Positions 15,199 through 61,725 of a DNA stretch of 64,000 nt are shown in pieces (position 1 is the first letter of the stretch; every line of letters begins with the position of its first letter). The stretch is from Heterodontus francisci (Eukaryota), in NCBI RefSeq assembly GCF_036365525.1, contig NC_090378.1, positions 123,737,593 to 123,801,592 on the forward strand, given 5' to 3'. A program made the translations under genes and the position numbers. Below the pieces are notes generated by a model. The model saw nothing but the letters and a program-made list of their open reading frames with translations, had not been told where the DNA came from and did no database searches.

Positions 15199-16740
15199 AC
15201 ATAGAATTTGGGAAGGAGAGAAGACTGGGATACAAGGAAAACTGAGGAAATACCATAGGCAACAGCAAAAAAATCCAGACATTTCAGCATGGGATGGGGG
15301 CAGACAATATAAAATAGGGAATGTGGAAGTGGCCACACAAGAAGTTGTAAATCAAATTGTTCAGACCACCACTTAGGTGAATAGCTTTTTGCCTCTTACA
15401 CTGAAATGGAGGATGGTGGGGGCGGGGAGGGCGGTGGGGGGTTGGAGGTGTGGGCTGATGTTGGAAGTCATACTGACCAGAACAAATAGTCTGTGGATAT
15501 GCCTAGTGTCATTTTCCAGCTGATGATCAATAATAAAATAATAAAAAAATTCGTACTGGGGAAAACTGGGACAAATCAGGAGGAAAAACAAAGACCTTGC
15601 ATATGAGGAATGCAAACCAGCGACTAGACTATTGAAGTGTATGTGGTTTTGTTACTCTGTTTTGATCAGCTGTTGTAAAAACATGGTAACACTGCTGTTA
15701 CCCAGTCACTGACCTTGGTTTCGAGGATACGGCTATCAATAAAGGTCAGATGGTCTCATTCAAGTAGGTGAGCTCTCAATGCACGAAACATGCAGATGGC
15801 AGTAATTATGGGCAGTGAAGTAACATTATTTATATATGAAGTACACACATCATACCAGAAGTTTGCTTCTATTTCAAAATAAAATCACGAAACATTTATG
15901 CACTGAAATTTATTTTAGTAACTTTTTAAAACAAATTACATAATATAAAAGGAATATGGAAAATATTTACAAAAATGTACACTTAGAAAATTTCACAAAT
16001 AACTCAGATGATTTCCTTTAATATCTGTGTCTACTGTTGTTGGCATAGCCCAGATTCTGAACCTTTTTATAGTGAGTGGCTTTCTGTAATTGTGTCTGAT
16101 TAGTAAATCCTTTACAGGGCACCAAGTGATAGATAGGAGGAGGAAAGAAAATACATTGGCCTCCCAAAACCAGGGTAATGAGCTCCATAAAGACCCTCCT
16201 CATCACAGCACATAGATTCAGATTGGGAAAGGACACTGGAACAGTGTGTGTGGAAGACACTAGAAATGTTAAAGTGCTTCAACACTTGCTTTCTCTGCTG
16301 GTTAATTTACACATAGTGCAAAACTGAATTTGATAGGGTCTCATATACTGTTAAGACATTCTTGGCATTTTTGCTACTTTGAAGGGATTTTGTTTTGGAT
16401 AAATCTATTGAGTGAACATACAGAATCAATGCTATCCTACACCTGTGAAGTGATTGCACTAAAATGAAGAGGTCAATGAATTAGTGTCTGATTAGGATCT
16501 TGAACATCAAGGCCCCTGCACTTTCACTCACAAAGGGTATTGCTTATTCTTTTAACAGATCACTGTAGGCAAGCCCACACTAGATAATGGCAGTTTCAAG
16601 TAATTGAACACAAATAAGGATAAATGAGGGACAAAAATAAGTGTAAAAGTATTCATATCTCAGGGATCTGGTCCCCCCTCTGCATCCTTTGAAGATTTCT
16701 TTCCCTAAAAAGGCTAACATTTACAAATATATATATACAT

Positions 16741-19700
16741 TGTCATGCAGGCCCCCACCAGCCAAGAATGAGGCACATTAATTTCACCACATGCACGTTA
16801 AACTTCAAATTGTTGCTGGGAAAAGAGGGCCTATTACAAGAAATTTCCAGGCCCCTAGCCTGGAAAATACATTTTTGCGAACTAGCAGACAGTGTTGGCA
16901 CAAAGGAACCAGTCCCTGCTCCCGACACACAGAAGACATGGTCAGACTACTTTAGTCAGATGACTATAATAAATAATTATAATATAGCATCTGCAGTATT
17001 GTGCTTTTATTTTAGTCACCTGACTAACTGGCTGTTGCAGGTTTTGAACGCGCCACAGTGAATTTGAAGACAGAAAGCTACTGGCTCCTGGATTGAGAAC
17101 ATCTCTCTCCTGTCTGCTCTCATTTCATTCTTCCCAGCTTTGGAATCCATTGAAGACACAAGAACCCCAAGAGAGAGAAATGTCTCCAACAGTGAGCAAT
17201 GTTTAAGAAGAATACTAAGCCCCAATGAAAAGCAAGAATTACCTGCAAGAAAGAACTACCTACAAAAGGACTCGACAGTGAGCTCGAAGCACAGTAACAA
17301 GAAACTGTTCAGAGATTGCCTCAAAGTTCTCCACTTGATTTTTCTTCTGCTCTTTCTGTCTCTATTTGCATGTGCCCATCGCGTATGCATGCGAGCTAAA
17401 GGATTATCATTTTTAATCCAAGACTTTATTTGCCACGATGAAAACCCCAGTTGGGGGGAAATGGCTGTGAAAAGAACAGTGTTTAAAACACAATTACCAG
17501 AGGACAGGCTGTTGGTCTCACATCAGAAAGGACAAGCTTTTCAAATGCTAAACCAAAACCCACTCCACCCAACAGAGACATTGCCTTCTGCTCTCAACCA
17601 GCCACCCACATCATCACTGGCTCCAAGGTGCCTAAGGAGACAATGAAATCCACTGGTTTTATATATAATCAAGTCAATCGGACAACAGAACCCATCGGAA
17701 GCAGTTCACACCTTGTATAGTACTCAACTAGATGACGAAGACCAACAGTTCCCATTGTCCGTCCTCCCCACTCCCCCACCGAAACCAGCCAGATGAAAAT
17801 ACCACATATTCAAACAAAGCTTTCTCACCAGGGACATGACAAGATCAGTCAGAAAAAAGGGAACATTCCGATTTTGGTGGAAAAAGCAAGACCGCTGAAA
17901 CAGTAGAAGTGAAGCAGCCTGAGGAAGGAGAGGATTGAACAGTTGATGTCAAATGGACAGCAGCCACACAGCTCTACAGGACAGAAGATCAGAGCACGCT
18001 GCTCCCTCTATAACCAGGACCAAAGGAAGTTGCATGCCCTAAGGAATGGTTACAGCCCCAAGGACTTTGATCGCAGAAGACACGACCCGGCATTCAAAGT
18101 CAGCAGGGTGAGCAGCCTGCAGAATACTCAACTCACAGTCATGTGGAGAGTTACCTCTGCATGTCCCGACCAAACCTTAGAAAAGGGGGTTAGTGTAGTG
18201 TTGGGAGTTAACCGACTGTGAGTTAGGGAACGTAATCGATTTGTTGTTAGTCATATAGGAACATTAGCATGGGTTTTGCCACACTGAGATTCGCAGTACA
18301 TATTGAACATACTTTCATTATTCGAAATCTGAAACCTGCATCGATTGCATTATTCATCATCCTTCAGTGTGATTCATGAAGGTAAGCCCAGACCTTCGAC
18401 CGTAAATCAGTGGGTTCGGTTGTGACCAGCAAGGCTAAATGAACCTCACACAATCGGAAACACTCTGCAGAGCGTGGGGCATGATGTGTATCCGTAGGCG
18501 TTAACCGAATTACCATTTAAATTTTAATAAATTTGACTTTTCTTCTTTAAACCTAAAAAAGCCAGTTTGTGCTCATTTCTTTGCCTTATATTTGGAAAGT
18601 GGTGAACAAGGATTCACCAAAGGGGGAGCTCAAAACACGGCATGTTTAAAAGTAAAGCCTGTTACAGGAAGACCAGGTGAAGGCTGAAGCGGATCCCCAG
18701 ACACCTTTCTCACCTGGTCATAATAGAAATTTGGGTGCCTGTGTCCGTAACTTTACCCATAGACAAACAAGAGAAATTGGAAATGGGAAACCTAATTGTT
18801 CACAATCAAAAAGAGCAAGTTTTCAATACAGGTTTTCTCCTGGTCGTGTGTGATTGAATACTAACATGTCTGCAACTGAAGCTAGCAGCTCTCCAAGCCA
18901 GGGTGAAGTAACTTGGGATAACTTAAAAGCACTGTCTATGGAGGTGTTGAGGAACACGGCTGAGCAGTGTGGGATCACAGTACTAGGAAGTCTGAACTCC
19001 GAAGGCTAGTGGCCAACTATTGTCTCCTTGAATCTGAAGAAGCAGAAACAGGGTCAGAAGCAGAATTCGACAGGGTATTGTTCGCAAAGGTACAATTGGA
19101 ACAGCGGAAACTTGGCTTTGAGGAAAGAGAGTGGGAGAAAGAGAGAGCCTTCCAAAGGAATGTGAAGAGAAAGAGAGAGCCTTCCAAAAAAGAATGGGAA
19201 AAGAAAGAGAGAGCCTTCCAGAAAGGAATGAGAAGTGAATGAAAGGCAAAAGAGAGAGAAAGACAGGAGAAGGAACAAGAGAGAGAGGAGCGAGAGAGAG
19301 AAAGAATATTCCAGAAAGAATCCGAAGAAAGAGAGCTGAAGCGGCTTGAGTTAACTCAGGGGTGACAGAGTAACCTCAGTGCAAGCATGGCCAATATGGA
19401 GGAGCATAATTCAGACTGGGCAAAAAATTGCTAAAACTTACTGATGCCAAAATTCAATGATGAAGATGTGGAGGCCTTTTTTGTGTCTTTTGAGAAACTG
19501 GCAAGGCAGCTGAAACGGCCAGCTGAGACCTGGTCTCTTTTACTTCAAAGCAAGCAAACTGGAAAAGCCCATGAGGTTCATTCCTTGTTGCTAGATAAGA
19601 GTTCAGCAAATTATGAACTGACCAAAAAGGCTATCCTTGGGGCATATGAACCCTCAGGAAGCAAGCTAATCAAACCTACCTGGAGTTTAAAAGAAGTAAG

Positions 19701-22700
19701 CAGCTGGCTTTTGACCAGTGGCTGAGGGCTCTTAAAATACCGCAAAGCTATGTGAATCTCAGGGAAGTAGTTCTGTTGGAGGAATTAAAAATCTCTCTCC
19801 CACTCTCAATAAAGACCCATATAATGGAGCAGTGCGTCCAGAGAGGCTGGCAAGAGGCCATTCTGGCTGATGAGTTTGCTTTAATTTATCGGTCGGTTTC
19901 CCAGGGGAAAACCTTTCCTAATCACTCCCACAAATCCGAAAAGGACAAAGGGTGGGAAGGTGATCTCCACCCAGGCAATCCTGGGAGAGAAAGGAAAGCA
20001 GGACACACAGGGGGCCCTCCAGACAAAAAGGAAGGTGCAGTGAGCAAGAGTGAGACCCGAAGACCTGTGTGCTTCCATTGTAATAAAGCAGGGCATTTAA
20101 AAGCTGACTGCTGGAAACTAAAGGGAAAATCGATAGGGTTAATCAGGGCACACCTGCTCAGTAAAGACGGGGACCTGGTGCAAAACACAGAACAAGCTGT
20201 GGCTTTAACTGCAGCAAGAATGCAACCCAGGAAGCTTACTACAGCCAGTGCTGGAAAAGCTGATAGGATTCCTGAAGGCTATCAGGGTTTTGTGTTTGAA
20301 GGGAAATTAACCCCATACCCCTCGAGTGAGGCCAGCAAGCCCAGAGTAATTCTCAGGGACACAGGACTCACTAGATCCCTTTTACTGGGAAAAGGCCTGA
20401 CCTTTCCCCCAGGGAGTGCAGTGAATACCAAAATGGTGGTGAATGGTGTTGGAGGGCAGTGTATACATGTACCTGATTACCGGGTGCACCTGGAGTGCAA
20501 CGTTGTTTCGAGATCAGTGACCGTAGGGATTGTCCCTAGTTTGTCTGTGGACAAGATTGACCTGTTCCGTGGTAATGATCTGGCGAGGGTGAAGGTGGTA
20601 GCCCCAACCCCCCCACCAAGTAGTGAAAGAAAGACCACAGGAGGTCAGAAAGACAGGGCAGTGGCAGGAGATGGTCTCCTGCAGTTTCCCTGAATGTGTA
20701 GTGGATCGGGCCATGATCAAACCAGCTCCCCCAGAAATTACTGCATTTGCACTGCAGGCAGATGACCATGAGGTCTGCCTGTCCGAGACATTCTTTGGAA
20801 AGTTAGAAGACCCAGGGAATGAATTAAATGGATTATCCCTAGCTGTGGCTCAGCAAGCCGACCCAGTATTGCGAGAGTTAGCATGGGCTGTCTAGTCTGA
20901 AAGAGAAGCAGAGTGAGTCCCTAATTGCAACTATTTAAAGAATGAGGTACTGATGAGGAAATGGAGTTCTCCTCACAGACCTGAGAGCAAGGAGAGGGCA
21001 TTAGTTCACCAATTAGTGGTTCCGCAGAGGTACCGGTTGGAAATATTAAGAAGGGCCTACAAGGCCACAGTGGCTGTACATGTCAGTATACGAAAGACCA
21101 AAGCCCGCATAAGACAGCAGTTTGACTGGCCAAAACTGCACTAAGATATGGCGGAGTACTGGAGGAGTTGCTACATATGGCAGATTGAGGGGAAACCCCG
21201 ACCTACGATGAAACATGCATCCCTATGTCCTGTACTGGTGTTAGGCAGACCCTCCATCTGAAGGCTGGTGCACTGTAAGGGACCTCGACCAAGAACAAAA
21301 AGGGACAGGCAGGTGCAAGGCTGGCAAAAGTTCAGAAAAAGTAGGGGAAAAAGTGTCCAAGAGGGCAGGTTAAAGGAAGCCCGAGAGAAAGTCCTGAAGA
21401 AAATCCCTACTGTCTGGTCAGCCAACCCCGAAAAGTGTGAAAAGTTGGACCCCACATCCTCCTACGTAAATGCAGACTCTAGAAGCAGCCCACCAGAATT
21501 GATAACATCATTTACAGGAACCTGCAGCGATAAAGAGAGACCTCTAGGGGAGGCACAGAAACCATGAGGGTGATGCCTCACCTAGCCAAAGTGCCACAGG
21601 AGAATACGGTCAAGTCTGCACAACTACCTACAGGTATGAGTGTCTCAGAGAACAAAGGGCAGATTAACAAAGAATTTTCCCTTACAGTCAGAGAAAAAGG
21701 GAACCAAACATCCCCTGAAGTAATTGGGCATTGGGCAAACTGAAGAAAAGCTTCCCCAAAGAACCACCTGGTTGCTGGGATGCCAAAAAGGGGAAATTAA
21801 AGCAGCACCCAGAAAAGACAATTTTATTAAGCTTTAAGATTTATGAATGCATGAAAATGAATGAGCGAAATACATGGTTTTCTTTCTCTCACACCTTTTA
21901 ATGAAATGTCTTTTTTTCAAATCGCATTTCATTCCCCAGGGTCTGAAGGTGTTGTGCAGGCCCCCACCAGCCAAGAATGAGGCACATAAATTTTGCCACA
22001 TGGACATTAAACTTCAAATTGTTGCTGGGAAGAAAAGAGGGTCTATTACAAGGAATTGCCAGGCCCCTAGCCGGAAAGACATTTTTGCACACTAGCAGAC
22101 AATGTTGGAATAAAGGAACCAGTCCCTCCTCCCAGTACATAGAAGACATGATCAGACCACTTTAGTCATATGACGAACTGGCTGTTGCAGGTTTTGAACT
22201 CGCCACAGAGAATCTGAAGACAGAAAGCTGCTGGCTCCTGGATTGGGAACATCTCTATCTTGTCTCCTCTCATCTCATTCTCCCCAGCTTTGGAATCCAT
22301 TGTAGACAATGGAACCCTAAAAGAGAGAAATGTCTCCTACAGGGAACAAGGTTTAAGAAGAATACTGGGCCCCAACGAAAAGCAAGAATTACCTCCAGCA
22401 AGAACTGCCTACAAAAGGACTCGACAGTGAGTTCGAAGCACAGTAACAAGAAACTGTTCAGAGATTGCCTCAGACCTCTTCACTTTATCTTTCTTCTGCT
22501 CTTTTCTGTCTCTATTTGCATGTGCATATCAGGTATGCGTGCTCGCGTGGGGCGCGGCGTGTATCCGTAGGCGTTAACTGGATTAGAGTTCAAATTTAAG
22601 TTTTAATAAATTTCACTTCTCTTTAAACCTAAGAATGCCTGTTTGTGCTCATTTCTTTGTCTTATAATTGGAAAGCGGTGAACAAGGATTCACCAAGAGG

Positions 22701-22799
22701 GAGCTCAAAACACAGTGTGTTTCAAATTAAATCCTGCTGCAGTAGTCCAGGTGAAGGTTGAAAAGGAGCCCTCGACACCTTTCTCGCTTAGTCATAACA
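16741..22799 (+). mobile_element. Two-LTR Gmr1-like Gypsy retrotransposon with internal deletion (no RT/RNase H)
   Basis: LTRs 16741-18725 and 21950-22799 are homologous; degenerate tRNA-Pro PBS after 18725; gag PKFNDEDVEAFFVSFEKLA, CFHCNKAGHLKADC knuckle, protease LRDTG, then directly the integrase Zn-binding region LVVPQRYRLEIL..H..FDWPKL..C. Confidence 0.9.
17397..18469. mobile_element. 1073-bp insertion (probable solo LTR) inside the 5' LTR
   Basis: Absent from the 3' LTR; flanked by GAGC direct repeats (17393-17396, 18470-18473); ends in CA. Confidence 0.65.
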
Positions 22800-23047
22800 A
22801 TGTATACAAAATAACAGTAAAATATAAAGCTGAACATGAATTCAAAATAATTGCAACATAATGGCAATCATAAACTTTTTCCTAATTTCTTGCAGTTGTC
22901 CTTTGTTGAAGATAAGTCTGATTCTGTGCCTGCAGAAGAGATTGAAGAACTGGAAAAATAAGAGAAGGCAGGAAAGGTCTGCTAAAGATCTCAAGGGCTA
23001 TCCCACGACTGATTGGTAGATCACACCTGCATAAAACGTTTGTCTCC

Positions 23048-23229
23048 TCACAGTGTAATCCTGCTTAGTGTGTGCGTCAAGGTTCCCTCTTTGGGTGCTC
23101 TGGGTAGTGTCGAGCACGATTGCGTTTGCAGCCAAGCCAGTTCGTCTGTGTTTGGAATTCTCAGGAGAAGGTCAAGGTTTGCAGGGTACCAAGCACGGAA
23201 CACATTGTCCTTCTCTGATATCACCAACT
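23048..23229 (-). CDS. Orphan gene model, terminal coding exon 4
   Basis: Acceptor ctcctgcttttcag; phase 1; (E)LVISEKDNVFRAWYPANLDLLLRIPNTDELAWLQTQSCSTLPRAPKEGTLTHTLSRITL*. Confidence 0.55.
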
Positions 23230-23454
23230 CTGAAAAGCAGGAGAAATGTACATTGGTATTTACACATACATTTTTATAGTGTTGATTGGATTAAGCATAC
23301 AACTATAATCTAGATGTAGAATTATGAATGGCTGAGAGTAATAGGATTAGAATTTGTTGCAAGGATTCAGAATGTATCACAAACTCACAAGAGAAAAGTT
23401 TGTAGGTTTCCACCATTATTGCATAGGCCCAATAACTGAAAAGAAAAACATTTT

Positions 23455-23700
23455 AAAATCCATTCTCAGGATATGAGTATTGCTGGCACAACCAGAATTT
23501 ATTCCCTGTCCTTAGTTACCCCCCGAGAAGATCAGTACTGGCTGCCTTTTTCGTCACAGTTTGATAGAATTAGGTGGCTTGCTAAGCCTCTTCAGAGGGC
23601 AGTTAAGGGTCGACCATGCATGGGCCAGGCCAGGTAAGGATATCAGGTTTCCTTTCTTAAAGAACATGAATGAACAATTGGGTTTTTACTCTGGTCCAAC
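23455..23700 (-). mobile_element. DeuSINE (SacSINE1-like) fragment: Deu domain joined to the LINE tail
   Basis: Reverse complement resembles 52350-52500 followed closely by the tail seen at 55350-55445. Confidence 0.6.
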
Positions 23701-23734
23701 AGTTAAACAGCTATTGAGTTACCACTGCAAAACA

Positions 23735-23925
23735 TTGACAAACGTCATTCTTCCTTCATTGTTGGGTCTGAATCTTGGAATTCCCTACCTAATAAAAATG
23801 GGGAAACACCATCATCAAAAAAACAGCAGCGGCTCAATGATAGGGCCTGTCCCACCACCTTGTCAGGGCAATGAGGGATGAACAATAAATGACAGCTTTA
23901 CCAGTGATGCTTGTATCCAGAGAAT
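23735..23925 (+). mobile_element. LINE 3' tail fragment (family of 52198-55455)
   Basis: Similar to 55260-55445 (ttccttcattgttgggtc..cagggcaatgagggatgaacaataaatg). Confidence 0.6.
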
Positions 23926-24630
23926 TTTTTAAAACTCTGACTGGAATATCATTCCACAGGCACTGGGAATCCTCACCTAATGAGGCCTTCTGCTTGGTGG
24001 AATCTGGACAGTGGGAGTTGACAGGATTTTTAATCATGAGAGAATCACAGCCATGAAGGCTGATCCTGTCTTCAACTTTTTTCTGGTATCCACTTTTCAC
24101 CAGAAAAGGTGGTGGGGAGGGTGTTACTGATTAGCACATTCGGTGCTGAGGACCCCATTGAATCTTCCTGCTTCATCGTCAAGGTGCTCTGCAGCCAACT
24201 GAAAAAAGATGGTTCTTGATTTCAGTAAAATAAAATGTTTAATGCATTGTTGAATAATCAATTTGAATTACAATGAAGAAACCAGAATAATGCTGATAAA
24301 TTCTGAATTATTTTTAGTTAAATCCACAATCAACTCCAGATTTTTACCCATGACACAATATAGCTTTTCGAGGGATTAGCCGACATGAGTTACTAAACTG
24401 GAGGAGGCTTTATGCTTTCATTAGGTGCTGACAAATAGCTTGTTACTGAGTAATGTGAAGCTAAATGACTCCAAGTTGGATCCTGCTGAGTGCAGTTGGG
24501 TTAGTTCAATTATAAGAATCTGGATTTTCCCAGCTTTTTGTGAAATCAGAAGAAAATATAAATCTGCTGGCAGAGGTTTATGTATCTTTTGGGATAGATT
24601 TATCAAATTGAGACAATTTTCACCCCTCAC

Positions 24631-24709
24631 CTTGATCTTGTGAAATGGTCTGTGTGAACTGAGAATTCTCTGGAGGTTCTGTTTCCAGGGTCTGCTTGGA
24701 TGAGGCTCT
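24631..24709 (-). CDS. Orphan gene model, coding exon 3 (79 nt)
   Basis: Acceptor ttattttgcag, donor AAG|gtgagg; phase 0 to 1; RASSKQTLETEPPENSQFTQTISQDQ. Confidence 0.55.
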
Positions 24710-24869
24710 CTGCAAAATAACAGGTGTCCTATCTTAGTCAGTAACATGAAGAAATAGAAAATTAATTACATTTCATGAATATATTTTATAAAAAGTGCAA
24801 AACCTTTCCAAAAGGCAAGGTTCGCAAGTGTTCTGTCTCAGCAACCTCTTCTCAAAGTATGTGAGACGA

Positions 24870-25135
24870 GGCTTCAATATCATCATCTTCAAATTTGGAT
24901 ACTAACCAGGAATAGTGTAAGAAATCACAGCTTGTCTCTGGACTAGGATCATTTGAATTACAAGTGGCTTCTCCACTACGTAAAGACAATTTTTCCCTCA
25001 CCAATTCTATCTGTCTGATTTCACTGTCTTTTTGTGCTTGTAATTCCTTCTCAAACTTTTCCCTCTGGAAAGTACTCTCTCTCTCCCTCTCCTCTCATTC
25101 CTCCTTTCTCACCTGAAATTCTAACTCAAAGCTGT
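24870..25135 (-). mobile_element. Gypsy gag fragment (same family as ~6140-6392)
   Basis: Direct nucleotide similarity (ggatcatttgaatta..caattc.atctgtct.atttcac..ccttctcaaa..cacctgaaattctaactcaa). Confidence 0.75.
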
Positions 25136-26067
25136 GGTTGTTCTCCTTTCAGCAGAGAAGGTGATGTGAAGATTTGATACAGGTTGTAAAGGCTGATTAG
25201 ATCAGTAATAAGATGAAAATTCTGACCATTCGTTGCCTTTATACACCCACTCTGCTGTATTAAAAATTCCCATTTCATATCTTGCAATGGACTGATTCCA
25301 TGTTTTCAATCAAAGAGGCTTGAAATAATCTTTCCCAACATAAAATATACGAGTGGATCATTAAGTTATATGGCCAGCGTGTTACCCATGTGACCAATAA
25401 TGTTTAGATTCGAATAGTCATTTTTGAATCAGTCACATGGTGACAATTCTATTTTGGACTGTACCTTTCACCACTCCTATTTTTCATTTGCTCTCTTCCC
25501 ATCTTTGAAACTTCACGTGAGCCAAGGCCAAGGAAGAAAAACTGTTCAAGGACTCTGCTATTATTACTCAATTAAATAACAGGAGGTGCCAGAGGTGCCT
25601 GTGGTTAGCTACACACTCATTGTAGAACCCAGCGTTCAATCTGTACCTGCTTGGGACATTGTTGCAATCAAGTACAAGGATGGGGAGAAATCAGAAATTA
25701 ATAGATTTCAGCTCATTCCCTGAATAAGGGTATGAGTGTGCCACACCTTGGTGTGGCCTGTACATTTAATGAGTAATGTCAGCAAAACTCAAACAGTGCG
25801 ACAGCATTCCAAAAGAAAGTTGAAATGATGGCCAAAATACTCAAGAGACAGAAAAGATATCAACAATGTGGAAATTAGACATTGCGAATTAGCACTAATA
25901 GCAGCCACACCGCCATCTTCAATATGACGAGATGGCAACAAATGGTCTGAGGTAATTTTTTTCTTAAATACAAGAGGAACTTTTTTTAATGTCTGTGAAT
26001 ATATTGACAGAAGCAACAGCCATTAAGCAGCATGAACATGACTAATAGAAACAATCCATGTACTTAC

Positions 26068-26391
26068 CAAAGTGCTTTGGTACAGATCGTCATCCTCTTG
26101 CCTGATTCCGATGTTATCGTGGCCATTCTTCTGCCTGCACCCAGGAAATGCCACTTTTGAAATGCAGGCAGTCACTGAGGCCGAACACTTGCGAGCCCAA
26201 TTGCCGGAAGTTGTTCTTACAGAACACTTCTGAATCCAACTGCAGACGGCTGCGAAGATGGAACGCCTGGGAACCTTGGGAGTGTGGGACGATGATGATG
26301 CTGATGACGACACACTACTAAGCGAGGATGATACTCTCGTGGAGACAGTGTCCACAGGGCGAATGGGTGAATGAGACGATACTTCAGATGA
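26068..26391 (-). CDS. Orphan gene model, coding exon 2 (324 nt, Ser-rich then Cys/Trp segment)
   Basis: Acceptor tttctgcag, donor TTG|gtaagt; open phase 0-0; SSEVSSHSPIRPVDTV..RRSIFAAVCSWIQKC..EDDDLYQSTL; CpG-retaining relative to flanks. Confidence 0.6.
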
Positions 26392-27799
26392 CTGCAGAAA
26401 TTTGTTTTTGATAAAGTGTGTCAATGATTATATCTCAGAAAGTTCCCTCTTCCCAGTTACATCTATTGTGCCATGAAACTCCCTGGCACTTACCACACCC
26501 CACCCCGCAAAAAAAATCAAGGCATTGTGGATACAACAGCTTGGTCTTGAGAAGGGGAAGTAATGCATGATTCCATGATAGTTAAACTGTGAAATCTTTC
26601 CATTGGTTTTCCTCCCTCGCTCAGCCAAAGTCTGCTCCGAAGAATGATGCCGCCATCTCACATCCACTGGTTGATAAGCCAACATTGACAGTTCATCATT
26701 TAGCACGTTTGTAAATTACCCAGTTAGATTGTTAGCACATGGCATGCACAAATTCATCACGGCCATTACATTTGAATACTTCTGCTAGTGTTTTAACTCT
26801 AAGTTATCAAATAATCCCTTTGCTTTTCAGTTGAACACTCAGTATTTGAACACTCCTATATCTATGCAGATATTTACTTGCCTGCCTCACCCAGTTACTC
26901 ATTGTAACTTTGCAGCATCCACCTATATAGGATGAAGTTAAAACATATCCTGTGGTGCTGCTAGGCTTGAACAAGTCAAGAAAGAGTATGAGTGCAAAAA
27001 AGTATTGGTGAGCTTGCCTGAATGAGAAAGCCAGCCAGCGCACATACAGGCAAGAGCTCGAGAGACAGAAAGAGACAGCAAGAACTAGAAATAGAGAGAG
27101 TTAGAAGTAAGGAAATTAGGAGTCAAATCACTCAGTTCATTCTAATGCAGCTCTTACCAGGTGAGTGCAGAATATTGGTAATGAAGAAGCAATAAAGGCA
27201 CTGAAGAGGGGGTGTATAAGGACCAAAAGAGGAGAATCCATAAATAGGGAGGGTATTTTAAAGCAGAAATAGGACCCTAAAGATGCAGAACAGATATAAT
27301 AATGGTTAACTGAACTGCTAAAAGACTGAATTGCTGAAATTTCCAGGGAACAGGTGAGAGACACTTTCTACTAAAATCAATGATACCAGCTTACTGATAA
27401 ACTTCCAGGAAACACCACCCTTCTGTAGAGAAGATGCTGAATAGCAACTAAAGGTCAACTATAGAAAAAACAAAGCCTGCATTCAAGAGGGAATCTGGTG
27501 TGCATGCAGGGAGGTGTATTACGTTGTTGCGATTTGGACAGCAGTTTACTAGATTTGATCCCAAAATACCGTTTTTGATGGACTATGCACTTTAAGCTGC
27601 TACAGTCACAGCCCAGGTGCTAACTTTATGGTCAACCATGAAGTCATTAATAACCTTTAAAGAATTAAAATTAAAGATTTTGGTTATTAGTGTGACAATA
27701 TGTTTTAACACGCAAAGCTTCCTTCGAACATATTTAAAGGATATAAAATATTACACAAAACAAGCCAAGCTTGTATTTCACATAAATCAAATCACTGAC

Positions 27800-27808
27800 C
27801 GAGTCCAT
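27800..27808 (-). CDS. Orphan gene model, first coding bases (MDS) within exon 27800-27932
   Basis: Kozak-like AACATGG with an upstream in-frame TGA; donor TCG|gtcagt; exon acceptor attctttcag adjoining 27932. Confidence 0.45.
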
Positions 27809-28098
27809 GTTCTCCCCGAGCTCCCGATCCGAGGGGATTTCGGCTGGTCACTGCTCTTGCTTGGAGTGCTGTCTGCGACATCTGTCCCGTGAAATAGCCG
27901 ACATGAGGGAAAGGGATTCATCAGCAAAAACACTGAAAGAATACTAAAGTTGCTACGCTGTACAGAAAGAGTTTACTGCTGATTCAGGTAGCACTTGGTA
28001 GTTGGTCACTCAACAATGGCCCGATATAATGAATAGTTTTTGCAATTTATTAGAATCACCTGCTCGATTCCATCCTGGGCCTGTAATGCAACTTATTG

Positions 28099-28200
28099 AA
28101 ATAAAAACAGAAAATGCTGAAAATACTCAGGAAGTCTGGCAGCATCTCTGGAGAGAGAAACTGAGTTAGTGTTTCATGTCTGTGATCTTTCATTAGATCC
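28099..28200 (-). mobile_element. Degenerate Penelope terminal-repeat/hammerhead fragment
   Basis: Reverse complement ctaatgaaagatcacagacatgaaacactaactcagtttctctctccagagatgctgcc resembles 14165-14260. Confidence 0.65.
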
Positions 28201-28485
28201 CATTTATATTTTGATCACAAAGAATTACATTTGAAAAAGGTTCTGTCAGAGGTAGTAACCCTAATAATAACTTTATTTATCTCGCTTTTATCAACATCAT
28301 AAAATTGTCCAAGATGCATCACAGGAGTGTCAGGCCATAAATTTTGTCAGCCGGTCACATGAAGATAAGGTATATTTTTCTGTTAACAGCATTTTTGAAT
28401 CTGGCAATGCTTTTGTATAGAACTGTCTGCATTAAGGCAGTAAAGTTTCAATGTACAGGTATTTGATTTCTGTGCCTGATTGAAG

Positions 28486-28939
28486 TAAAGACCTGCTCAG
28501 GTTAGGGAAAAAGAACCCAACCCAAACCAGACGGAACCACAGTGGACCCGAGCCCGACCCGGCCCGAGTCCCTCCGATTTTGCCCCAAGCCCGACCCGAG
28601 CCCGACTCGACTATCCCTTTACTTACCTTCCGACTCGGAACGTCCAGGAAGCTGCAGCATGTGTGTGATGGCATCATAGAGACGTCACTCACTAACTGCA
28701 CACACTCAGTTTCGCTGCTTGACGTCCCGGACTCCCAGCTCAGGTAAGTTTTATTTAATTTTAATACTGACCAGCAGAGCAATAACCATCTGTGTCCGGC
28801 CTGACCCGGACCCGGACCCAAACCCGAACCCGGCCCGACCTGAGCCCGAAAGCCGGACCTGGAAGAGGGGCCCAACCCGACCTGAACCCAACACATGTCG
28901 TCGGGTCCCGTCGGGTCCCGGTCGGGTCACAGGCCTTTA
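28486..28939. mobile_element. hAT-type MITE (454 bp)
   Basis: TIRs TAAAGACCTG / CAGGCCTTTA; 8-bp TSD GATTGAAG / CATTGAAG; many subterminal CCCGA/TCGGG repeats. Confidence 0.8.
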
Positions 28940-31900
28940 CATTGAAGTCCAAATCATTGATATATCCTGCAAAAAGCAAGGGACCTGGTACTGAACCCTG
29001 CAGAACCCATTTGGAAACAGTCTTCCAGTCACAAAAACACCCATCAACCATTATCCTTTGTTTCCTGCCTCTGAGCCAATTTTGAATCCATCTTGTCACT
29101 TTGCCTTGGTCCCCTGGGCTTTTTCTTTCATGACCAGTCTGTCATCTGGGACTTTATCATAAACCTAGGTATAATCCATATAGACTACATCAAATGCACG
29201 ACCCTCATCGACCCTCCTTGTTTCCTCTTCAAAAAATTCAATCACGTTAGTCAGACACAACCTTCCCTTAACAAATCCATGCTGAATATCTTTGACTAAT
29301 CCATGTATGACTCAATGAAGGTTTATCCTGTCCCTCAGAGCTTTTTCCAATATTTTTCCCACCACTGGAGGTAGGCTGACTGGCCTGTAATTACTCGGTC
29401 TATTCCTTTCTCCCGTTTTAAACAATGGTACAATGTGAACTGTCCTCCAGTCCTCTGGCACCACACCTGTAGACAGAGAATATTGGAAAATGATGGTCAG
29501 AGCCTCTGCTGTTTCTTCTCTTGCTTCATTTAACAGCCAAGGATGCATTTCATCTGGGCCTGGTGATTTAACCACTTTCAAACATGTTAAATCCCTTAAT
29601 ATCTCATCTCATTATATTAGTTTTATCTAACATTGCACACTCCTCCTCCCTGATTGCAATTTCTGTATCATCCCTCTCTTTAGTGAAAACAAATGCGAAT
29701 CCTCCTCCTTCATCCACAGGTTACCCTGGTGGACCCAAATAGGCTCTACTCTTTCTTTCATTATAATCCTGCCTTTCTGTATTTATAAAACAACCTTTAG
29801 TTTTCTTGATTTTATTTGACTTGCCAATTTTTTTCATGCCCTCTCTTTGCTTTCCTAATTTCCTTTTTAATTTCACCCCTACACTTTTTATACTCCTCTC
29901 GATTTTCTGCCTTGGTATCTGTCATTAATCTTCCTGTTTTACTTTATCCTCTCCTTTCAGCCCCTTGACATCCACAAGACTCTGGATTTGTTAGTCCCAC
30001 CCTTTTTCTTTAAGGGAACATATTTCTTTAAGGGCGGCACAGTGGCGCAGTGGTTAGCACCGCAGCCTCACAGCTCCAGGGACCTGGGTTCGATTCTGGG
30101 TACTGCCTGTGCGGAGTTTGCAAGTTCTCCCTGTGTCAGCGTGGGTTTCCTCCGGGTGCTCCGGTTTCCTCCCACATGCCAAAGACTTGCAGGTTGATAG
30201 GTTAATTGGCCATTATAAATTGCCCCTAGTATAGGTAGGTGGTAGGGAAATATATAGGGACAGGTGGGGATGTGGTAGGAATATGGGATTAGTGTAGGAT
30301 TAGTATAAATGGGTGGTTGATGGTCGGCACAGACTTGGTGGGCCGAAGGGCCTGTTTCAGTGCTGTATCTCTCTCTAAACTAAACTTGCTCTGAACCCTC
30401 ACTATCTCTTCCTTGAATGCCTCCCACTGATCCAGCACTGATTTACTTTCAAGTAACTGTTTCCAACCCCATTTAGCTAAATCACATTTCAGCTTAGTAA
30501 AATTAGCTTTCCCCAGTTGAGAACTTTTATTCCTGGTCTGTCTTTGTCCTTTTCCATAACTATTCTAAATCAAACTGAATTATGATCACTTCCATCAAAG
30601 TGCGCCCCGTCCGATCCCCCTTCCACCTGCCCAGCTTCATTCCCTAAAATTTTGTCCAGTCTCACAATCCCTCTTTTTGGACTTGATACATACTGGATAA
30701 CAATGTTCTCCTCAATGCATTTGAAGAATTCTGTGACCACTGAGTCTTTCACATAAACTCTACCCCAGTTAATATTGGGGCAGTTGAAATCCCCCACTGT
30801 TTCATTGTTTTTGCAGTTCTGAAATTTGTCCACATATTTGCTCTTCTCTCTCCTTCTAACAGTTTCAGGGTCTATAGCACACTCCCAGTAGTGTGATTGC
30901 CCCTGTTTTGTTCTTCAGTTCAACCCATATGGCAACATTTGTTTATCCTTCTACCATATCTTCTCTCCTCACAGCTATAATTGTTTCTTTAATCAATATT
31001 GCAACTCACCCCCTCCTGAGATATCCCCATCTCTGTCTCGTCTGAAAACCCTGTAACTAGAAATGTTGAGCTGCCATTCCTGCCCTTCTTTCAGCCATGT
31101 CTCAGTAATCGCTATAATATCATGCTGCCATGTGTCAATCTGTGCTGTCAGCTCATCTGCCTTATTTCCTCAACTTGTATTGAAGGATATATTATTTAGC
31201 TCTGTCAAACTCCCTTGTTTATTTTCTAACCTTCGTTTTCTCTGCCTTCCAAAGACGCTGACTAATTTACTGCCTTCCATTTCGAACTTTTCTTCTCTCT
31301 CTTCTGAATCTACTCTCAGGTTCCCATCCCTGTGCTCAGCTAGTTTAAACTCTCCCCAACAGCACGAGTAAAACTCACTGCGAGGATATTGGTCCCGGCC
31401 CTGTTGATTTGCAAACAGTCCGTCTTGTACAGGTCCCACCTCCTCCAGAAGCAGTCCCAAAGCCTCAGGAATCTAAAGCCCTCCCTCCTGCATAATCTCT
31501 CCAGCTCTATGTATTCATCAGTTCTATCTTCCTATTTCTGTAATCACTAATACGTGGCACTGGGAGTAATCTGGAGATTAATACTTTTGAGGTTCTGCTT
31601 TTCAATCTCCCTCCAAGCTGCCTAAATTCTGCTTCAGAACCTCATCCCTCCTTCTGCCTCTGTCATTGGTGCCAATATGGACCACGACCTCTGGCTGTTC
31701 ACTCTCCCCCATCAGAATGTCCTGCAGTCGCTCAGTGATATCCTTGTCCCTGGCACCAGGGAGGCAACATACCATCATGGAGCCACCTCTGCAGTCACAG
31801 AAGTGCCTGTCTATTCTCCTCACTATCGAATCCCCTCCCACTATTGCTCTTCCACTCTTCTTCCTCCCTCCCTGTACAGCTGAGTCACCCATGGTGCTGT

Positions 31901-32300
31901 GGACTTGGCTCTGCCTGCACTCCCCAGTGGAACCATCACTCTGACCAGTATTCAGAACTGAATACCAGTTGGAGAGTGAGATGCACTCGTGGGATCACTG
32001 TCCTGCATGCCTGGTCCTCCTTGTTCTTCTGGCCCTCACCCATTCCCCCTCTGCCAGCACATTTTTAAACTGTAGGGTGACCACCTCCAGAAAGCTCTCA
32101 TCCTCGTGGATGCATAGTGACTCCAGTCAGTGCTCAAACTCCGAAACCCAGAGCTCGAGCTGCTGTAACCGGTGACACTTCCTGTACATGTGGTCATCCA
32201 GGTCATGAGAAGTGTCCAGGATTTCCCACATGACACAGGATGTGTATTCCACAGGGCTGAGGTTCCCTGCCATGTTTTACTTTCTAGACTATTATCTAGA
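28940..32300 (-). mobile_element. CR1 LINE, 5' portion (ORF1 esterase, APE endonuclease, partial RT), decayed
   Basis: ORF1 SGNH motifs GDSIVR, CLPGA, VHIGTND; ORF2 VGDFNCPNINW, SDHN, KSPGPD, PEDWR, NYRPVSL, QGSVPGP. Confidence 0.88.
30032..30385 (+). mobile_element. tRNA-derived V-SINE (shark HE1-like)
   Basis: A-box TGGCGCAGTGG, B-box GGTTCGATTC, V-domain GTGGGTTTCCTCCGGGTGCTCCGGTTTCCTCCCAC, CR1-like tail ending (CTAAA)2; inserted in the CR1. Confidence 0.9.
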
Positions 32301-32942
32301 AACACTTAGAGCTGGTCTCGCTGTCTCCCGCTCCATCACTCAGACTGCTCCGTGTTTTGTCAAAGATCAGAATAGAATCTCTTCAGTCATTGCACTGAAT
32401 TCCCTCAATCCCCAATTCTCCGAGTTAGGTATCTGTTGAAGCAGTACTCCATCAAGCTGGACTTGGTGCTGGGCTGCTGAGTGAGCCTGCAAGCCCCTTT
32501 GAGCACTGGCATCCACAGCCATGATGGCAGCAGTCAGAGCCTGTGTGGCAGCAAGCTCAGATTACAATACCTCAGTCTGAGCTTCCACTGGAGCACTCAG
32601 ACATTGGGGTGGCCTCTACTTGTACTGCAATTCACTCATCCATGTCTCTGATACTCTGGAAATGTTAATCTGCTCACTTGTGTTTATATTATTCAAATCA
32701 TCAGAGGAATTTGTAACAGCAATATAATCATGGAGCTTCAGAGGGCAATATAACCATTGTAACAGGATGATTTGAAGGGATAGAGAGGAATAAAGAGCCT
32801 TTGCTGGCTCCATGTGGTTATTCTGATATCACTTTTATGTATCTATGATGTCCTCTGATTCAGTGGCAGTATGAACGGAATGTAGATGTAGATAAAGTAG
32901 AATTAGGATAAGACTTGTGAGTGAAACACTGCATGTTGTATT

Positions 32943-35900
32943 CATACTGGATTGTGAAGTGTGATGTTCCTGAGTACACAGACTGGATTGTGAAGTGTTA
33001 TGTACCTGAGTACACAGACTGGATTGTGAAGTGTGATGTACCTGAGTACACAGACTGGACTGTGAAGTGTGATGTATCTGAGTACACAGACTGGATTGTG
33101 AAGTGTGATGTACCTGAGTACACAGACTGGATTGTGAAGTGTGATGTACCTGAGTACACAGACTGGATTGTGAAGTGTGATGTACCTGAGTACACAGACC
33201 GGATTGAGAAGTGTGATGTTCCTGAGTATACAGACTGGATTGTGAAGTGTGATGTACCTGAGTACACAGACTGGATTGTGAAGTGTTATGTACCTGAGTA
33301 CACAGACTGGATTGTGAAGTGTGATGTCCCTGAGTATACAGACTGGATTGTGAAGTGTGATGTACCTGAGTACACAGACTGGATTGTGAAGTGTGATGTA
33401 CCTGAGTACACAGACTGGATTGTGAAGTGTGATGTACCTGAGTACACAGACTGGATTGTGAAGTGTGATGTCCCTGAGTATACAGACTGGATTGTGAAGT
33501 GTTATGTACCTGAGTACACAGACTGGATTGTGAAGTGTGATGTCCCTGAGTACACAGACTGGATTGTGAAGTGTGATGTACCTGAGTACACAGACTGGAT
33601 TGTGAAGTGTGATGTCCCTGAGTATACAGACTGGATTGTGAAGTGTGATGTACCTGAGTACACAGACCGGATTGAGAAGTGTGATGTTCCTGAGTATACA
33701 GACTGGATTGTGAAGTGTGATGTACCTGAGTACACAGACTGGATTGTGAAGTGTTATGTACCTGAGTACACAGACTGGATTGTGAAGTGTGATGTCCCTG
33801 AGTATACAGACTGGATTGTGAAGTGTGATGTACCTGAGTACACAGACTGGATTGTGAAGTGTGATGTACCTGAGTACACAGACTGGATTGTGAAGTGTGA
33901 TGTACCTGAGTACACAGACTGGATTGTGAAGTGTGATGTCCCTGAGTACACAGACTGGATTGTGAAGTGTGATGTACCTGAGTACACAGACTGGATTGTG
34001 AAGTGTGATGTCCCTGAGTACACAGACTGGATTGTGAAGTGTGATGTACCTGAGTACACAGACTGGATTGTGAAGTGTTATGTACCTGAGTACACAGACT
34101 GGATTGTGAAGTGTGATGTCCCTGAGTATACAGACTGGATTGTGAAGTGTGATGTACCTGAGTACACAGACTGGATTGTGAAGTGTTATGTACCTGAGTA
34201 CACAGACTGGATTGTGAAGTGTGATGTCCCTGAGTATACAGACTGGATTGTGAAGTGTGATGTACCTGAGTACACAGACTGGATTGTGAAGTGTGATGTA
34301 CCTGAGTACACAGACTGGATTGTGAAGTGTGATGTACCTGAGTACACAGACTGGATTGTGAAGTGTGATGTCCCTGAGTATACAGACTGGATTGTGAAGT
34401 GTTATGTACCTGAGTACACAGACTGGATTGTGAAGTGTGATGTCCCTGAGTACACAGACTGGATTGTGAAGTGTGATGTACCTGAGTACACAGACTGGAT
34501 TGTGAAGTGTGATGTCCCTGAGTATACAGACTGGATTGTGAAGTGTGATGTACCTGAGTACACAGACCGGATTGAGAAGTGTGATGTTCCTGAGTATACA
34601 GACTGGATTGTGAAGTGTGATGTACCTGAGTACACAGACTGGATTGTGAAGTGTTATGTACCTGAGTACACAGACTGGATTGTGAAGTGTGATGTCCCTG
34701 AGTATACAGACTGGATTGTGAAGTGTGATGTACCTGAGTACACAGACTGGATTGTGAAGTGTGATGTACCTGAGTACACAGACTGGATTGTGAAGTGTGA
34801 TGTACCTGAGTACACAGACTGGATTGTGAAGTGTGATGTCCCTGAGTACACAGACTGGATTGTGAAGTGTGATGTACCTGAGTACACAGACTGGATTGTG
34901 AAGTGTGATGTCCCTGAGTACACAGACTGGATTGTGAAGTGTGATGTACCTGAGTACACAGACTGGATTGTGAAGTGTTATGTACCTGAGTACACAGACT
35001 GGATTGTGAAGTGTGATGTCCCTGAGTATACAGACTGGATTGTGAAGTGTGATGTACCTGAGTACACAGACTGGATTGTGAAGTGTGATGTACCTGAGTA
35101 CACAGACTGGATTGTGAAGTGTGATGTCCCTGAGTATACAGACTGGATTGTGAAGTGTGATGTACCTGAGTACACAGACTGGATTGTGAAGTGTTATGTA
35201 CCTGAGTACACAGACTGGATTGTGAAGTGTGATGTACCTGAGTACACAGACTGGACTGTGAAGTGTGATGTATCTGAGTACACAGACTGGATTGTGAAGT
35301 GTGATGTACCTGAGTATACAGACTGGATTGTGAAGTGTGATGTACCTGAGTACACAGACTGGACTGTGAAGTGTGATGTACCTGAGTACACAGACTGGAC
35401 TGTGAAGTGTGATGTATCTGAGTACACAGACTGGATTGTGAAGTGTGATGTACCTGAGTACACAGACTGGATTGTGAAGTGTGATGTACCTGAGTACACA
35501 GACTGGATTATGAAGTGTGATGTATCTGAGTACACAGACTGGACTGTGAAGTGTGATGTATCGGAGTACACAGACTGGATTGTGAAGTGTGATGTACCTG
35601 AGTACACAGACTGGACTGTGAAGTGTGATGTATCTGAGTACACAGACTGGATTGTGAAGTGTGATGTACCTGAGTACACAGACTGGATTGTGAAGTGTTA
35701 TGTACCTGAGTACACAGACTGGATTGTGAAGTGTGATGTACCTGAGTACACAGACTGGACTGTGAAGTGTGATGTATCTGAGTACACAGACTGGATTGTG
35801 AAGTGTGATGTACCTGAGTACACAGACTGGATTGTGAAGTGTGATGTACCTGAGTACACAGACTGGATTATGAAGTGTGATGTATCTGAGTACACAGACT

Positions 35901-47900: not shown

Positions 47901-48640
47901 GTGATGTTCCTGAGTACACAGACTGGATTGTGAAGTGTGATGTATCTGAGTATAGAGACTGGATTGTGAAGTGTGATGTATCTGAGTACACAGAATGGAT
48001 TGTGAAGTGTGATGTATCTGAGTATAGAGACTGGATTGTGAAGTGTGATGTATCTGAGTACACAGACTGGATTGTGAAGTGTGATGTACCTGAGTACACA
48101 GACTGGATTGTGAAGGGTGATGTATCTGAGTACACAGACTGGATTGTGAAGTGTGATGTATCTGAGTACACAGAATGGATTGTGAAGTGTGATCTACTTG
48201 AGTACACAGACTGGATTGTGAAGTGTGATGTATCTGAGTACACAGACTGGATTGTGAAGTGTGATGTTCCTGAGTACACAGACTGGATTGTGAAGTGTGA
48301 TGTTCCTGAGTACACAGACTGGATTGTGAAGTGTGATGTATCTGAGTACACAGACTGGATTGTGAAGTGTGATGTTCCTGAGTACACAGACTGGATTGTG
48401 AAGTGTGATGTATCTGAGTACACAGACTGGATTGTGAAGTGTGATGTATCTGAGTACACAGACTGGATTGTGAAGTGTGATGTTCCTGAGTACACAGACT
48501 GGACTGTGAAGTGTGATCTACTTGAGTAAACAGACTGGATTGTGAAGTGTGATGTATCTGAGTACACAGACTGGACTGTGAAGTGTGATCTACTTGAGTA
48601 CACAGACTGAACTGTGAAGTGTGATGTACCTGAAAACACA
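32943..48640. repeat. 36-bp minisatellite, ~436 units, with higher-order repeats
   Basis: Unit GACTGGATTGTGAAGTGTGATGTACCTGAGTACACA in head-to-tail tandem without spacers; variant patterns recur at 900, 1800, 4068 and 5868 bp. Confidence 0.99.
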
Positions 48641-48649
48641 GGCTGGAGA

Positions 48650-61427: not shown

Positions 61428-61725
61428 GTATCAGTGGAGACACCATCATGACCCAGTCTCCACCGGCACTGTCAGTGACACTGGGACAGACCGCAACGAT
61501 CACCTGTACGGCCAGCCAGTCCGTAGGCAAATATGTAGCTTGGTATCAGCAGCGAGACGGTCAGAAACCCACTCTCCTGATCTATTATGCAACAACTCGA
61601 TACACAGGAACATCCGAACGATTCACCGGCAGTCAACAGAACACCAAATTCACTCTGACAATCAGTAATGTACAGAATGAGGATGTTGCAGATTATTACT
61701 GTCAGCAAACTTACAGCAGCCCCTA
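61428..61725 (+). CDS. IGKV: Ig kappa-type (shark NS4/type III) light chain V exon, germline unrearranged, intact frame
   Basis: Acceptor ccctcag; [78 protein letters not shown] with both canonical Cys and Trp. Confidence 0.96.

What the first reader, a model, noticed from the sequence alone, without database searches (positions are those of the whole stretch)
23048..27932. Hidden 4-exon orphan gene (197 aa) on the minus strand
Four segments with canonical splice sites chain in compatible phases (27808-27800, 26391-26068, 24709-24631, 23229-23048; 9+324+79+182 = 594 nt). They give MDSSSEVSSHSPIRPVDTVSTRVSSSLSSVSSSASSSSHTPKVPRRSIFAAVCSWIQKCSVRTTSGNWARKCSASVTACISKVAFPGCRQKNGHDNIGIRQEDDDLYQSTLRASSKQTLETEPPENSQFTQTISQDQELVISEKDNVFRAWYPANLDLLLRIPNTDELAWLQTQSCSTLPRAPKEGTLTHTLSRITL*. 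The N-terminus is Ser-rich and likely disordered, followed by an amphipathic Cys/Trp segment (possible membrane association or palmitoylation; inference). I recognise no family. The start exon has its own acceptor, implying an upstream non-coding exon. Caveat: exon 3 is open in all three frames, so phase agreement is only moderate evidence.
Basis: partly seen in the sequence, partly recalled or inferred. Interest (0 to 1): 0.7.

Follow-up and report, generated by a model that had tools for sequence, protein, structure and literature searches.

The report
Amplified RGL1 tails among shark antibody genes
The supposed orphan gene is the last four exons of a duplicated, beheaded copy of the Ras-pathway gene RGL1, spliced in RNA-like data but likely a non-working by-product of a fast-evolving RGL1 family that has multiplied among this shark's antibody kappa genes.

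Summary
The four exons, splice sites and 197-aa frame are real, and all three junctions appear in RNA-like contigs. It is not an orphan. An identical protein is in RefSeq as RGL1-like. It aligns to residues 723-906 of this genome's intact RGL1 (40%, E 2e-35, same stop) with collinear introns. It is RGL1's Ser-rich linker plus a decayed Ras-association domain: 12 residues spanning strand 2 and helix 1 are gone, Pfam RA is absent, and AlphaFold gives no RA fold where the parent control does. The window holds one of 9 tail-only copies, each head-to-head with a kappa V; 11 sister copies keep the GEF exons tested. The open frame was likely inherited from those sisters. Here an upstream out-of-frame ATG predicts decay of the message. 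One thing is unexplained: GEF exons differ from the parent at 50 of 126 four-fold silent sites against 13.6% in introns, with a sharp exon boundary.

The parts
28484..28484 (-). 5' breakpoint of the tail-only (class B) copy: homology to parent RGL1 and to the GEF-bearing class A copies ends here
27919..27921 (-). upstream ATG of intronic origin; in frame in 21 of 23 C8 copies (the 235-aa RefSeq form), out of frame in the window and L016, opening a 98-aa frame that stops 149 nt before the exon 2/3 junction
27800..27898 (-). 5' half of the RGL1 exon for residues 659-721.
26392..27799 (-). intron 1, with a deletion of about 1.07 kb against the parent at 27790 that removed the rest of the exon and its donor; spanned unspliced by contigs of other class B copies; alternative acceptor at 26667/26666 is out of frame
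26068..26391 (-). RGL1 exon for residues 723-807: Ser-rich linker and first strands of the RA domain, ancestral splice sites kept
24710..24745 (-). first 36 nt of RGL1's 115-nt exon, now intron: ancestral acceptor lost, in-frame stop in the window; its loss deletes residues 808-819 of the RA domain
24631..24709 (-). last 79 nt of that exon behind a new in-frame acceptor
23048..23229 (-). last RGL1 exon (residues 847-906) with the native stop
22800..23047 (-). remnant of RGL1 3' UTR; parent homology resumes at 16735 beyond an insertion of about 6 kb
61439..61723 (+).

Best explanation
The four exons are the last exons of a 5'-truncated genomic duplicate of RGL1, spliced in RNA-like contigs, and likely a non-working by-product of an amplified GEF-bearing RGL1 family. 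Shown: RGL1 (C8:98.4 Mb) was duplicated with its introns, and derived copies now lie through the kappa array at 117-124 Mb. Class A copies kept the REM and CDC25 exons in frame while the Ras-association tail decayed through in-frame changes. Class B, which includes the window, broke at 28484, lost all GEF exons and sits head-to-head with a kappa V. Inferred: selection on the full-length class A message kept the tail's frame open, and class A likely encodes a Ral exchange factor no longer switched by Ras. Class B inherited that frame recently and is transcribed from an upstream repeat or kappa-locus promoter. In this copy the out-of-frame upstream ATG is predicted to send most message to decay, and any protein would be disordered and unlikely to bind Ras.
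For: Identity: PDB search hits only RGL1/RalGDS RA domains, 8 of 8 matches, best 1EF5 E 8e-7; 40% over 211 columns to RGL1 residues 723-906 with the same end; introns collinear at about 80%. Lineage: class A groups with own-species RGL1 (89/90), parent branch 0.004 against about 0.5 substitutions per site. Class A: 405 GEF codons, no stops, dN 0.145, dS 0.61; all 10 exon indels in locus A1 are multiples of 3, against 21-25% in introns; crude chance of no frameshift 2e-7 for GEF, 0.002 for tail. Tail: dN about equal to dS (0.245 and 0.231, 208 codons); RA residues 808-819 lost; no Pfam RA in P0007 or the class A models, present in the parent; AlphaFold mean pLDDT 38.5 with no RA fold, parent RA about 78-90 with the same 36 rows. 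Class B is young: 1.4-2.7% intron distance to the class A and B copies compared. Window copy: frameshift and dead ancestral acceptor. Contigs with class B alleles span intron 1 and run on past 28090; intron-retaining RNA gives 24 residues.
Against: All 9 class B tails are stop-free. Contigs specific to the window or its twin are spliced. A second tail-only lineage (C44 type) gained its own first exon and appears spliced in the second organism. Tail amino-acid changes ran at 2-5 times the intron rate on some stem branches, which plain decay does not predict. Contigs cannot give start, strand or level, so the long leader is not shown for this copy. Class A enzyme activity is untested and one exon (residues 518-547) is missing from it.
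Confidence: 0.6

Rival explanations
1. Tail-only copies make a working small protein, a decoy or adaptor derived from RGL1's C-terminus that has evolved a new partner.
For: 9 of 9 class B tails open; two splice-site shifts kept frame; an independent tail-only lineage with a new first exon, 8 of 9 complete C44-type tails without an internal stop; N changes 0.07-0.08 against intron 0.013 on the stem of the dispersed copies, p 3e-9; junctions in two organisms.
Against: No RA fold or Pfam match; no sign of constraint on the class B branch (N 4, S 3 changes, too few to tell); silent sites are accelerated about as much as replacement sites on the older branches; 7 of 9 complete C44-type copies are frameshifted near the end; after dispersal exons change at the intron rate.
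Confidence: 0.24
2. The family is in a genetic conflict: amplified GEF copies and tail-only RNAs silence or escape one another or the parent, and selection favours mismatches in the coding exons themselves.
For: Four-fold sites 50 of 126 different against 13.6% of 15,218 intron sites, p 4e-13, transversion-rich, 32 of 104 outside CpG, no gradient in flanking intron; copies sit in a mirror-symmetric multi-megabase array.
Against: 3' UTR pieces are not accelerated (26 of 207 and 20 of 200 mismatches); tail four-fold sites against the parent match introns (10 of 67); the lineage that changed could not be told (22:16 and 17:16); no small-RNA, tissue or transmission data; intron homogenisation by gene conversion is not excluded.
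Confidence: 0.12
3. It is a new orphan gene for a membrane-associated protein.
For: No Pfam family; among 1.84 billion representatives only two convincing relatives, both from this species.
Against: Homology to RGL1 at protein, exon and intron level; the Cys/Trp segment is a triplicated RGL1 unit.
Confidence: 0.01

Closest known systems
RGL1 (RalGDS-like 1), same-genome gene P0023; RA structures 1EF5, 7SCW/7SCX
   Same: Same last four exons, intron positions, Ser-rich linker, RA-derived sequence and stop codon.
   Different: No REM or CDC25 exons in the window copy; RA lacks residues 808-819 and three residues at strand 1, has a 26-residue insert before it, and is not predicted to fold.
RefSeq models XP_067894085.1/87.1/88.1 (197 aa) and XP_067894065.1 (235 aa), named RGL1-like
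   Same: P0007 has the same 197 residues as the finding.
   Different: The name hides that these are GEF-less fragments; the database gives no account of the amplification.
RGL4/Rgr and RalGPS1/2, RalGEFs not listed as direct Ras effectors (PMC10220265, passage read; PMC3141262, passages read, calls RGL4 a lineage-restricted duplicate)
   Same: Class A sisters would be a lineage-specific RalGEF duplicate uncoupled from Ras (inferred).
   Different: Independent origin from RGL1 in a shark, 11 near-identical copies, decayed RA still attached in frame. That RGL4 lacks an RA domain is recalled and implied by PMC10576006's list of four RA-bearing RalGEFs.
Transcribed unprocessed pseudogenes in segmental duplications (textbook class, recalled)
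   Same: Introns kept, 5' truncation, broken splice sites, frameshift, intron retention.
   Different: Frame still open and ending at the native stop; exon-limited excess of silent change in the family.

Membership tests
Orphan gene | No homolog outside the lineage | tested here: not met
   RGL1 of sharks and mammals align along the whole protein.
RGL1 descent | Collinear exons and introns with RGL1 and same stop | tested here: met
RalGDS-family RalGEF | REM domain (PF00618) | tested here: not met
   Absent from P0007 and from the window; present in class A models.
RalGDS-family RalGEF | CDC25 exchange domain (PF00617) | tested here: not met
   No GEF exon in the 36 kb of window upstream and none of the genome-wide hits lies in the window; present in class A.
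RalGDS-family RalGEF | RA domain (PF00788) at curated score | tested here: not met
   No hit at E up to 1 for P0007 or class A P0019; parent 48.6 bits.
RA domain | Ubiquitin-like fold | tested here: not met
   Prediction only: pLDDT 38.5, no fold; parent control folds.
RA domain | Intact strand 1, strand 2 and helix 1, which contact Ras switch I (PMC10576006, passages) | tested here: not met
   Parent strand 2 is 802-809 and helix 1 is 814-824; the copy lacks 808-819 and the segment shrinks from 39 to 24 residues, basic residues 5 to 3.
RA domain | Binds Ras-GTP | not testable with these tools
   Needs a binding assay.
Transcribed unprocessed pseudogene | Genomic duplicate with disablements | tested here: met
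   5' truncation, dead acceptors, 1-nt deletion.
Transcribed unprocessed pseudogene | Neutral evolution of the frame | tested here: inconclusive
   Class B branch has 4 N and 3 S changes, intron rate 0.010; frame open in 9 of 9.
Transcribed unprocessed pseudogene | No protein made | not testable with these tools
   Needs ribosome profiling or proteomics.

The most novel reading that the evidence does not exclude
The horn-shark kappa locus carries a palindromic amplicon of Ras-uncoupled Ral exchange factors and tail-only RNAs locked in an arms race, in which coding exons are driven to diverge three times faster than introns even at silent sites, as a selfish germline element and its suppressors would.
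Probability: 0.12. Interest if true: 0.8.

Novelty: new variant of a known kind. Interest (0 to 1): 0.42.

Why it matters
The finding itself is an ordinary kind of thing, a truncated duplicate that RefSeq already models. Its family matters more. A gene counted as single-copy in the human, mouse, rat and zebrafish table of PMC3141262 (passage read) has here at least 23 tail copies in the kappa array, with 11 copies of the GEF exon searched and an RA domain that appears lost. That is a natural test of what a Ral exchange factor does without Ras control. The exon-limited excess of silent change fits neither CpG decay nor the gradient expected of simple conversion, and could point to selection on RNA sequence. 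None of nine paper searches listed a description of this shark family; the library lacks most subscription journals.

Tried and rejected
No run on record as RNA was listed; the four laid runs are guessed RNA, so strand, start and level are not shown, and contig depth was not used to rank copies. No joint at the 27932 acceptor was listed, but hid 172 joints and hid 13 loose ends, so its use is not excluded. Polarising the silent excess with two ohnologs failed (22:16 and 17:16); a three-way test put it on the branch between the parent and the A+C ancestor without telling the side. CpG decay was rejected as the sole cause. Intron homogenisation by conversion predicted a gradient near exons that is absent, but is not excluded. 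Capture by one mobile element was considered for the dispersed copies: five or six share upstream sequence for up to about 1 kb beyond 27725, no element ends were identified, not pursued. Weak hits P0003-P0005 are repeats and were dropped. Pfam 'X' at E 6.4 is noise. No complex prediction was run, as no shark Ras protein was in hand. Two parent exon ends were set by longest match and may be a few letters long. Only 2 of 11 GEF-bearing loci were examined exon by exon. No supplements were opened.
Full report
Observation. The four segments exist at the stated places with GT-AG ends and give the 197-residue frame. Contigs of four public runs, guessed to be RNA and from two samples, join exon 3 to exon 4 in 4 of 4 runs, exon 2 to exon 3 in 3 of 4, and exon 1 to exon 2 in 2 of 4 with a matching loose end in a third. 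One exon 3/4 loose end in X1 carries two alleles found together only in the window and its twin L016 among 23 copies. In X2 the depth sums imply that the exon 1/2 contig lacks the extra G that only those two copies lack.

Identity. Exon 2 found two convincing relatives among 1.84 billion representatives. Their clusters are RefSeq proteins of this species, and one member has the same 197 residues and is named RGL1-like. Longer relatives carry RasGEF_N and RasGEF domains in front of the same sequence. A PDB search returned 8 sequences, all RA domains of RGL1 or RalGDS. The protein aligns to residues 723-906 of the intact RGL1 of the same genome at 40% identity, E 2e-35, and ends at the same stop. 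That gene lies at C8:98.4 Mb, and window 23022-28484 follows its last exons and introns at about 80% identity. This is a genomic duplicate, not a retrocopy and not an orphan.

Anatomy. Base-level alignment explains each oddity. Exon 1 is the front half of a 193-nt RGL1 exon; a deletion of about 1.07 kb removed the rest and a cryptic donor took over in frame. Exon 3 is the last 79 nt of a 115-nt exon whose acceptor was lost, which deletes residues 808-819. In the parent model these cover the end of strand 2 and the first half of helix 1, elements that contact Ras in the Rgl2 complex (PMC10576006, passages read). The Cys/Trp segment is a 39-nt unit present three times. Pfam RA is found in the parent and not in the copy. 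AlphaFold gives the copy pLDDT 38.5 and no RA fold, while the parent's RA reaches about 78-90 with the same rows; the rest of that control model is poor (mean 47.7).

Family. Exon 2 has 43 matches among 82 candidates, 23 of them on C8 at 117.1-124.4 Mb. Fourteen have a GEF exon upstream, 11 of these also an earlier GEF exon, and 3 are broken. Nine, including the window, break at 28484 and lie head-to-head 21-35 kb from one of 28 kappa V exons. The other matches lie mostly on other contigs at about 92% identity and lack exon 1. A protein tree places class A beside this species' RGL1 (89/90), with the parent nearly unchanged (15 rows, GEF region only). Searches with P0007 and P0020 showed derived copies only in this species (one search lists the best 120 of 2,008).

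Selection. In two class A loci examined exon by exon, 13 of 14 tested exons are present without stops and all indels keep frame; the exon for residues 518-547 is missing, also in frame. Introns have 13-17 indels per kb, 21-25% in frame, so the frame was kept by selection (crude probabilities 2e-7 for GEF and 0.002 for tail; no-stop probabilities 0.0025 and 0.02-0.08). The GEF has dN/dS 0.24, the tail about 1.1. Class B differs by 1-3% from its relatives, so its open frame says little about its own function. In the window an upstream ATG is out of frame through a 1-nt deletion (2 of 23 copies) and opens a 98-residue frame that stops 149 nt before the next junction, which by the textbook rule predicts decay. 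The main contig alleles match L020-L022 at 13 of 13 sites, and those contigs span intron 1 and continue upstream past 28090, with further pieces to 30997.

Mechanism. Shown: duplication, amplification, RA decay in frame, truncation, splicing. Inferred: class A is a Ral exchange factor cut loose from Ras; the tail stayed open because it ends the class A message; class B is a passenger of kappa-cluster duplication, transcribed from upstream repeats or the divergent V promoter. I put 0.6 on a non-working by-product, 0.24 on a working small protein and 0.12 on a conflict system.

Unexplained. GEF exons differ from the parent at 50 of 126 four-fold sites, 32 of them transversions, against 13.6% of 15,218 intron sites (p 4e-13). 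Flanking intron shows 10-15% at every distance. Outside CpG it is 32 of 104. Tail four-fold sites (10 of 67) and 3' UTR pieces are not raised against the parent, yet tail branches show both silent and replacement change at 2-3 times the intron rate. If introns are the neutral yardstick, GEF dN is about neutral and the dN/dS of 0.24 overstates constraint. The side on which the changes fell could not be told.

What is known. RefSeq already models the protein. Nine paper searches listed no account of this family; I read passages of PMC10576006, PMC3141262 and PMC10220265 and only listings of the rest. Verdict: a real, spliced, already annotated RGL1 fragment; a new variant of a known kind, of moderate interest for the family around it.

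Noticed in passing
G000:C8:117.0-124.6 Mb: The kappa/RGL1 array is mirror-symmetric: all 15 minus-strand V exons lie left of 120.7 Mb and all 13 plus-strand ones right of 121.0 Mb; three copy pairs share the midpoint 121.172 Mb with 0-1 differences in about 5 kb. A multi-megabase palindrome or a doubled assembly; copy numbers may be inflated.
   Followed up: partly
L028/L076-L082 and L034/L086-L090 (class A): Near-complete RGL1 duplicates with open REM and CDC25 exons, one exon lost in frame, decayed RA, and a threefold excess of silent change limited to coding exons. RefSeq models patch the missing region with unrelated sequence.
   Followed up: partly
L066/L096-L101 and L067/L102-L106 (class C): A third RGL1-derived family, 11 copies by one GEF exon at 76-77% to class A; in two loci several exons, including residues 588-845, were not found and one has a frameshift.
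   Followed up: partly
L056-L061, L083-L085 (parent RGL1): The parent gene has five tandem copies of a short exon between REM halves (residues about 128-273); RGL1 proteins of Mustelus, Cetorhinus and Scyliorhinus are also unusually long (1,014-1,235 aa).
   Followed up: no
L062, L055, L063 (C8:98.0 Mb): An older partial RGL1 copy near the parent with one of the two 39-nt insertions and one stop, an intermediate stage.
   Followed up: partly
L038-L047, L052 (C44, C49, C23 and small contigs): Tail-only copies that gained a new first exon at the window-27601 boundary; RefSeq calls most of them uncharacterized.
   Followed up: partly
window 16737-22799: An insertion of about 6 kb with repeated ends splits the RGL1 3' UTR and is shared with dispersed copies; LTR-element-like by recall, not library-tested. 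Some RefSeq models splice into it.
   Followed up: no
window 28484-32400: GC-rich repeat with a strong donor at 28627, then CR1-like LINE fragments on the gene's strand (label recalled from translations); candidate source of transcription.
   Followed up: no
window 32946-48647: 15.7-kb satellite of a 36-nt unit (reported as period 72/108) with stop-free frames up to 1,943 codons; it accounts for the longer distance to the V in this copy.
   Followed up: no
window 61759-64000: 61-nt satellite starting just after the V recombination signal, as in earlier notes of this scan.
   Followed up: no
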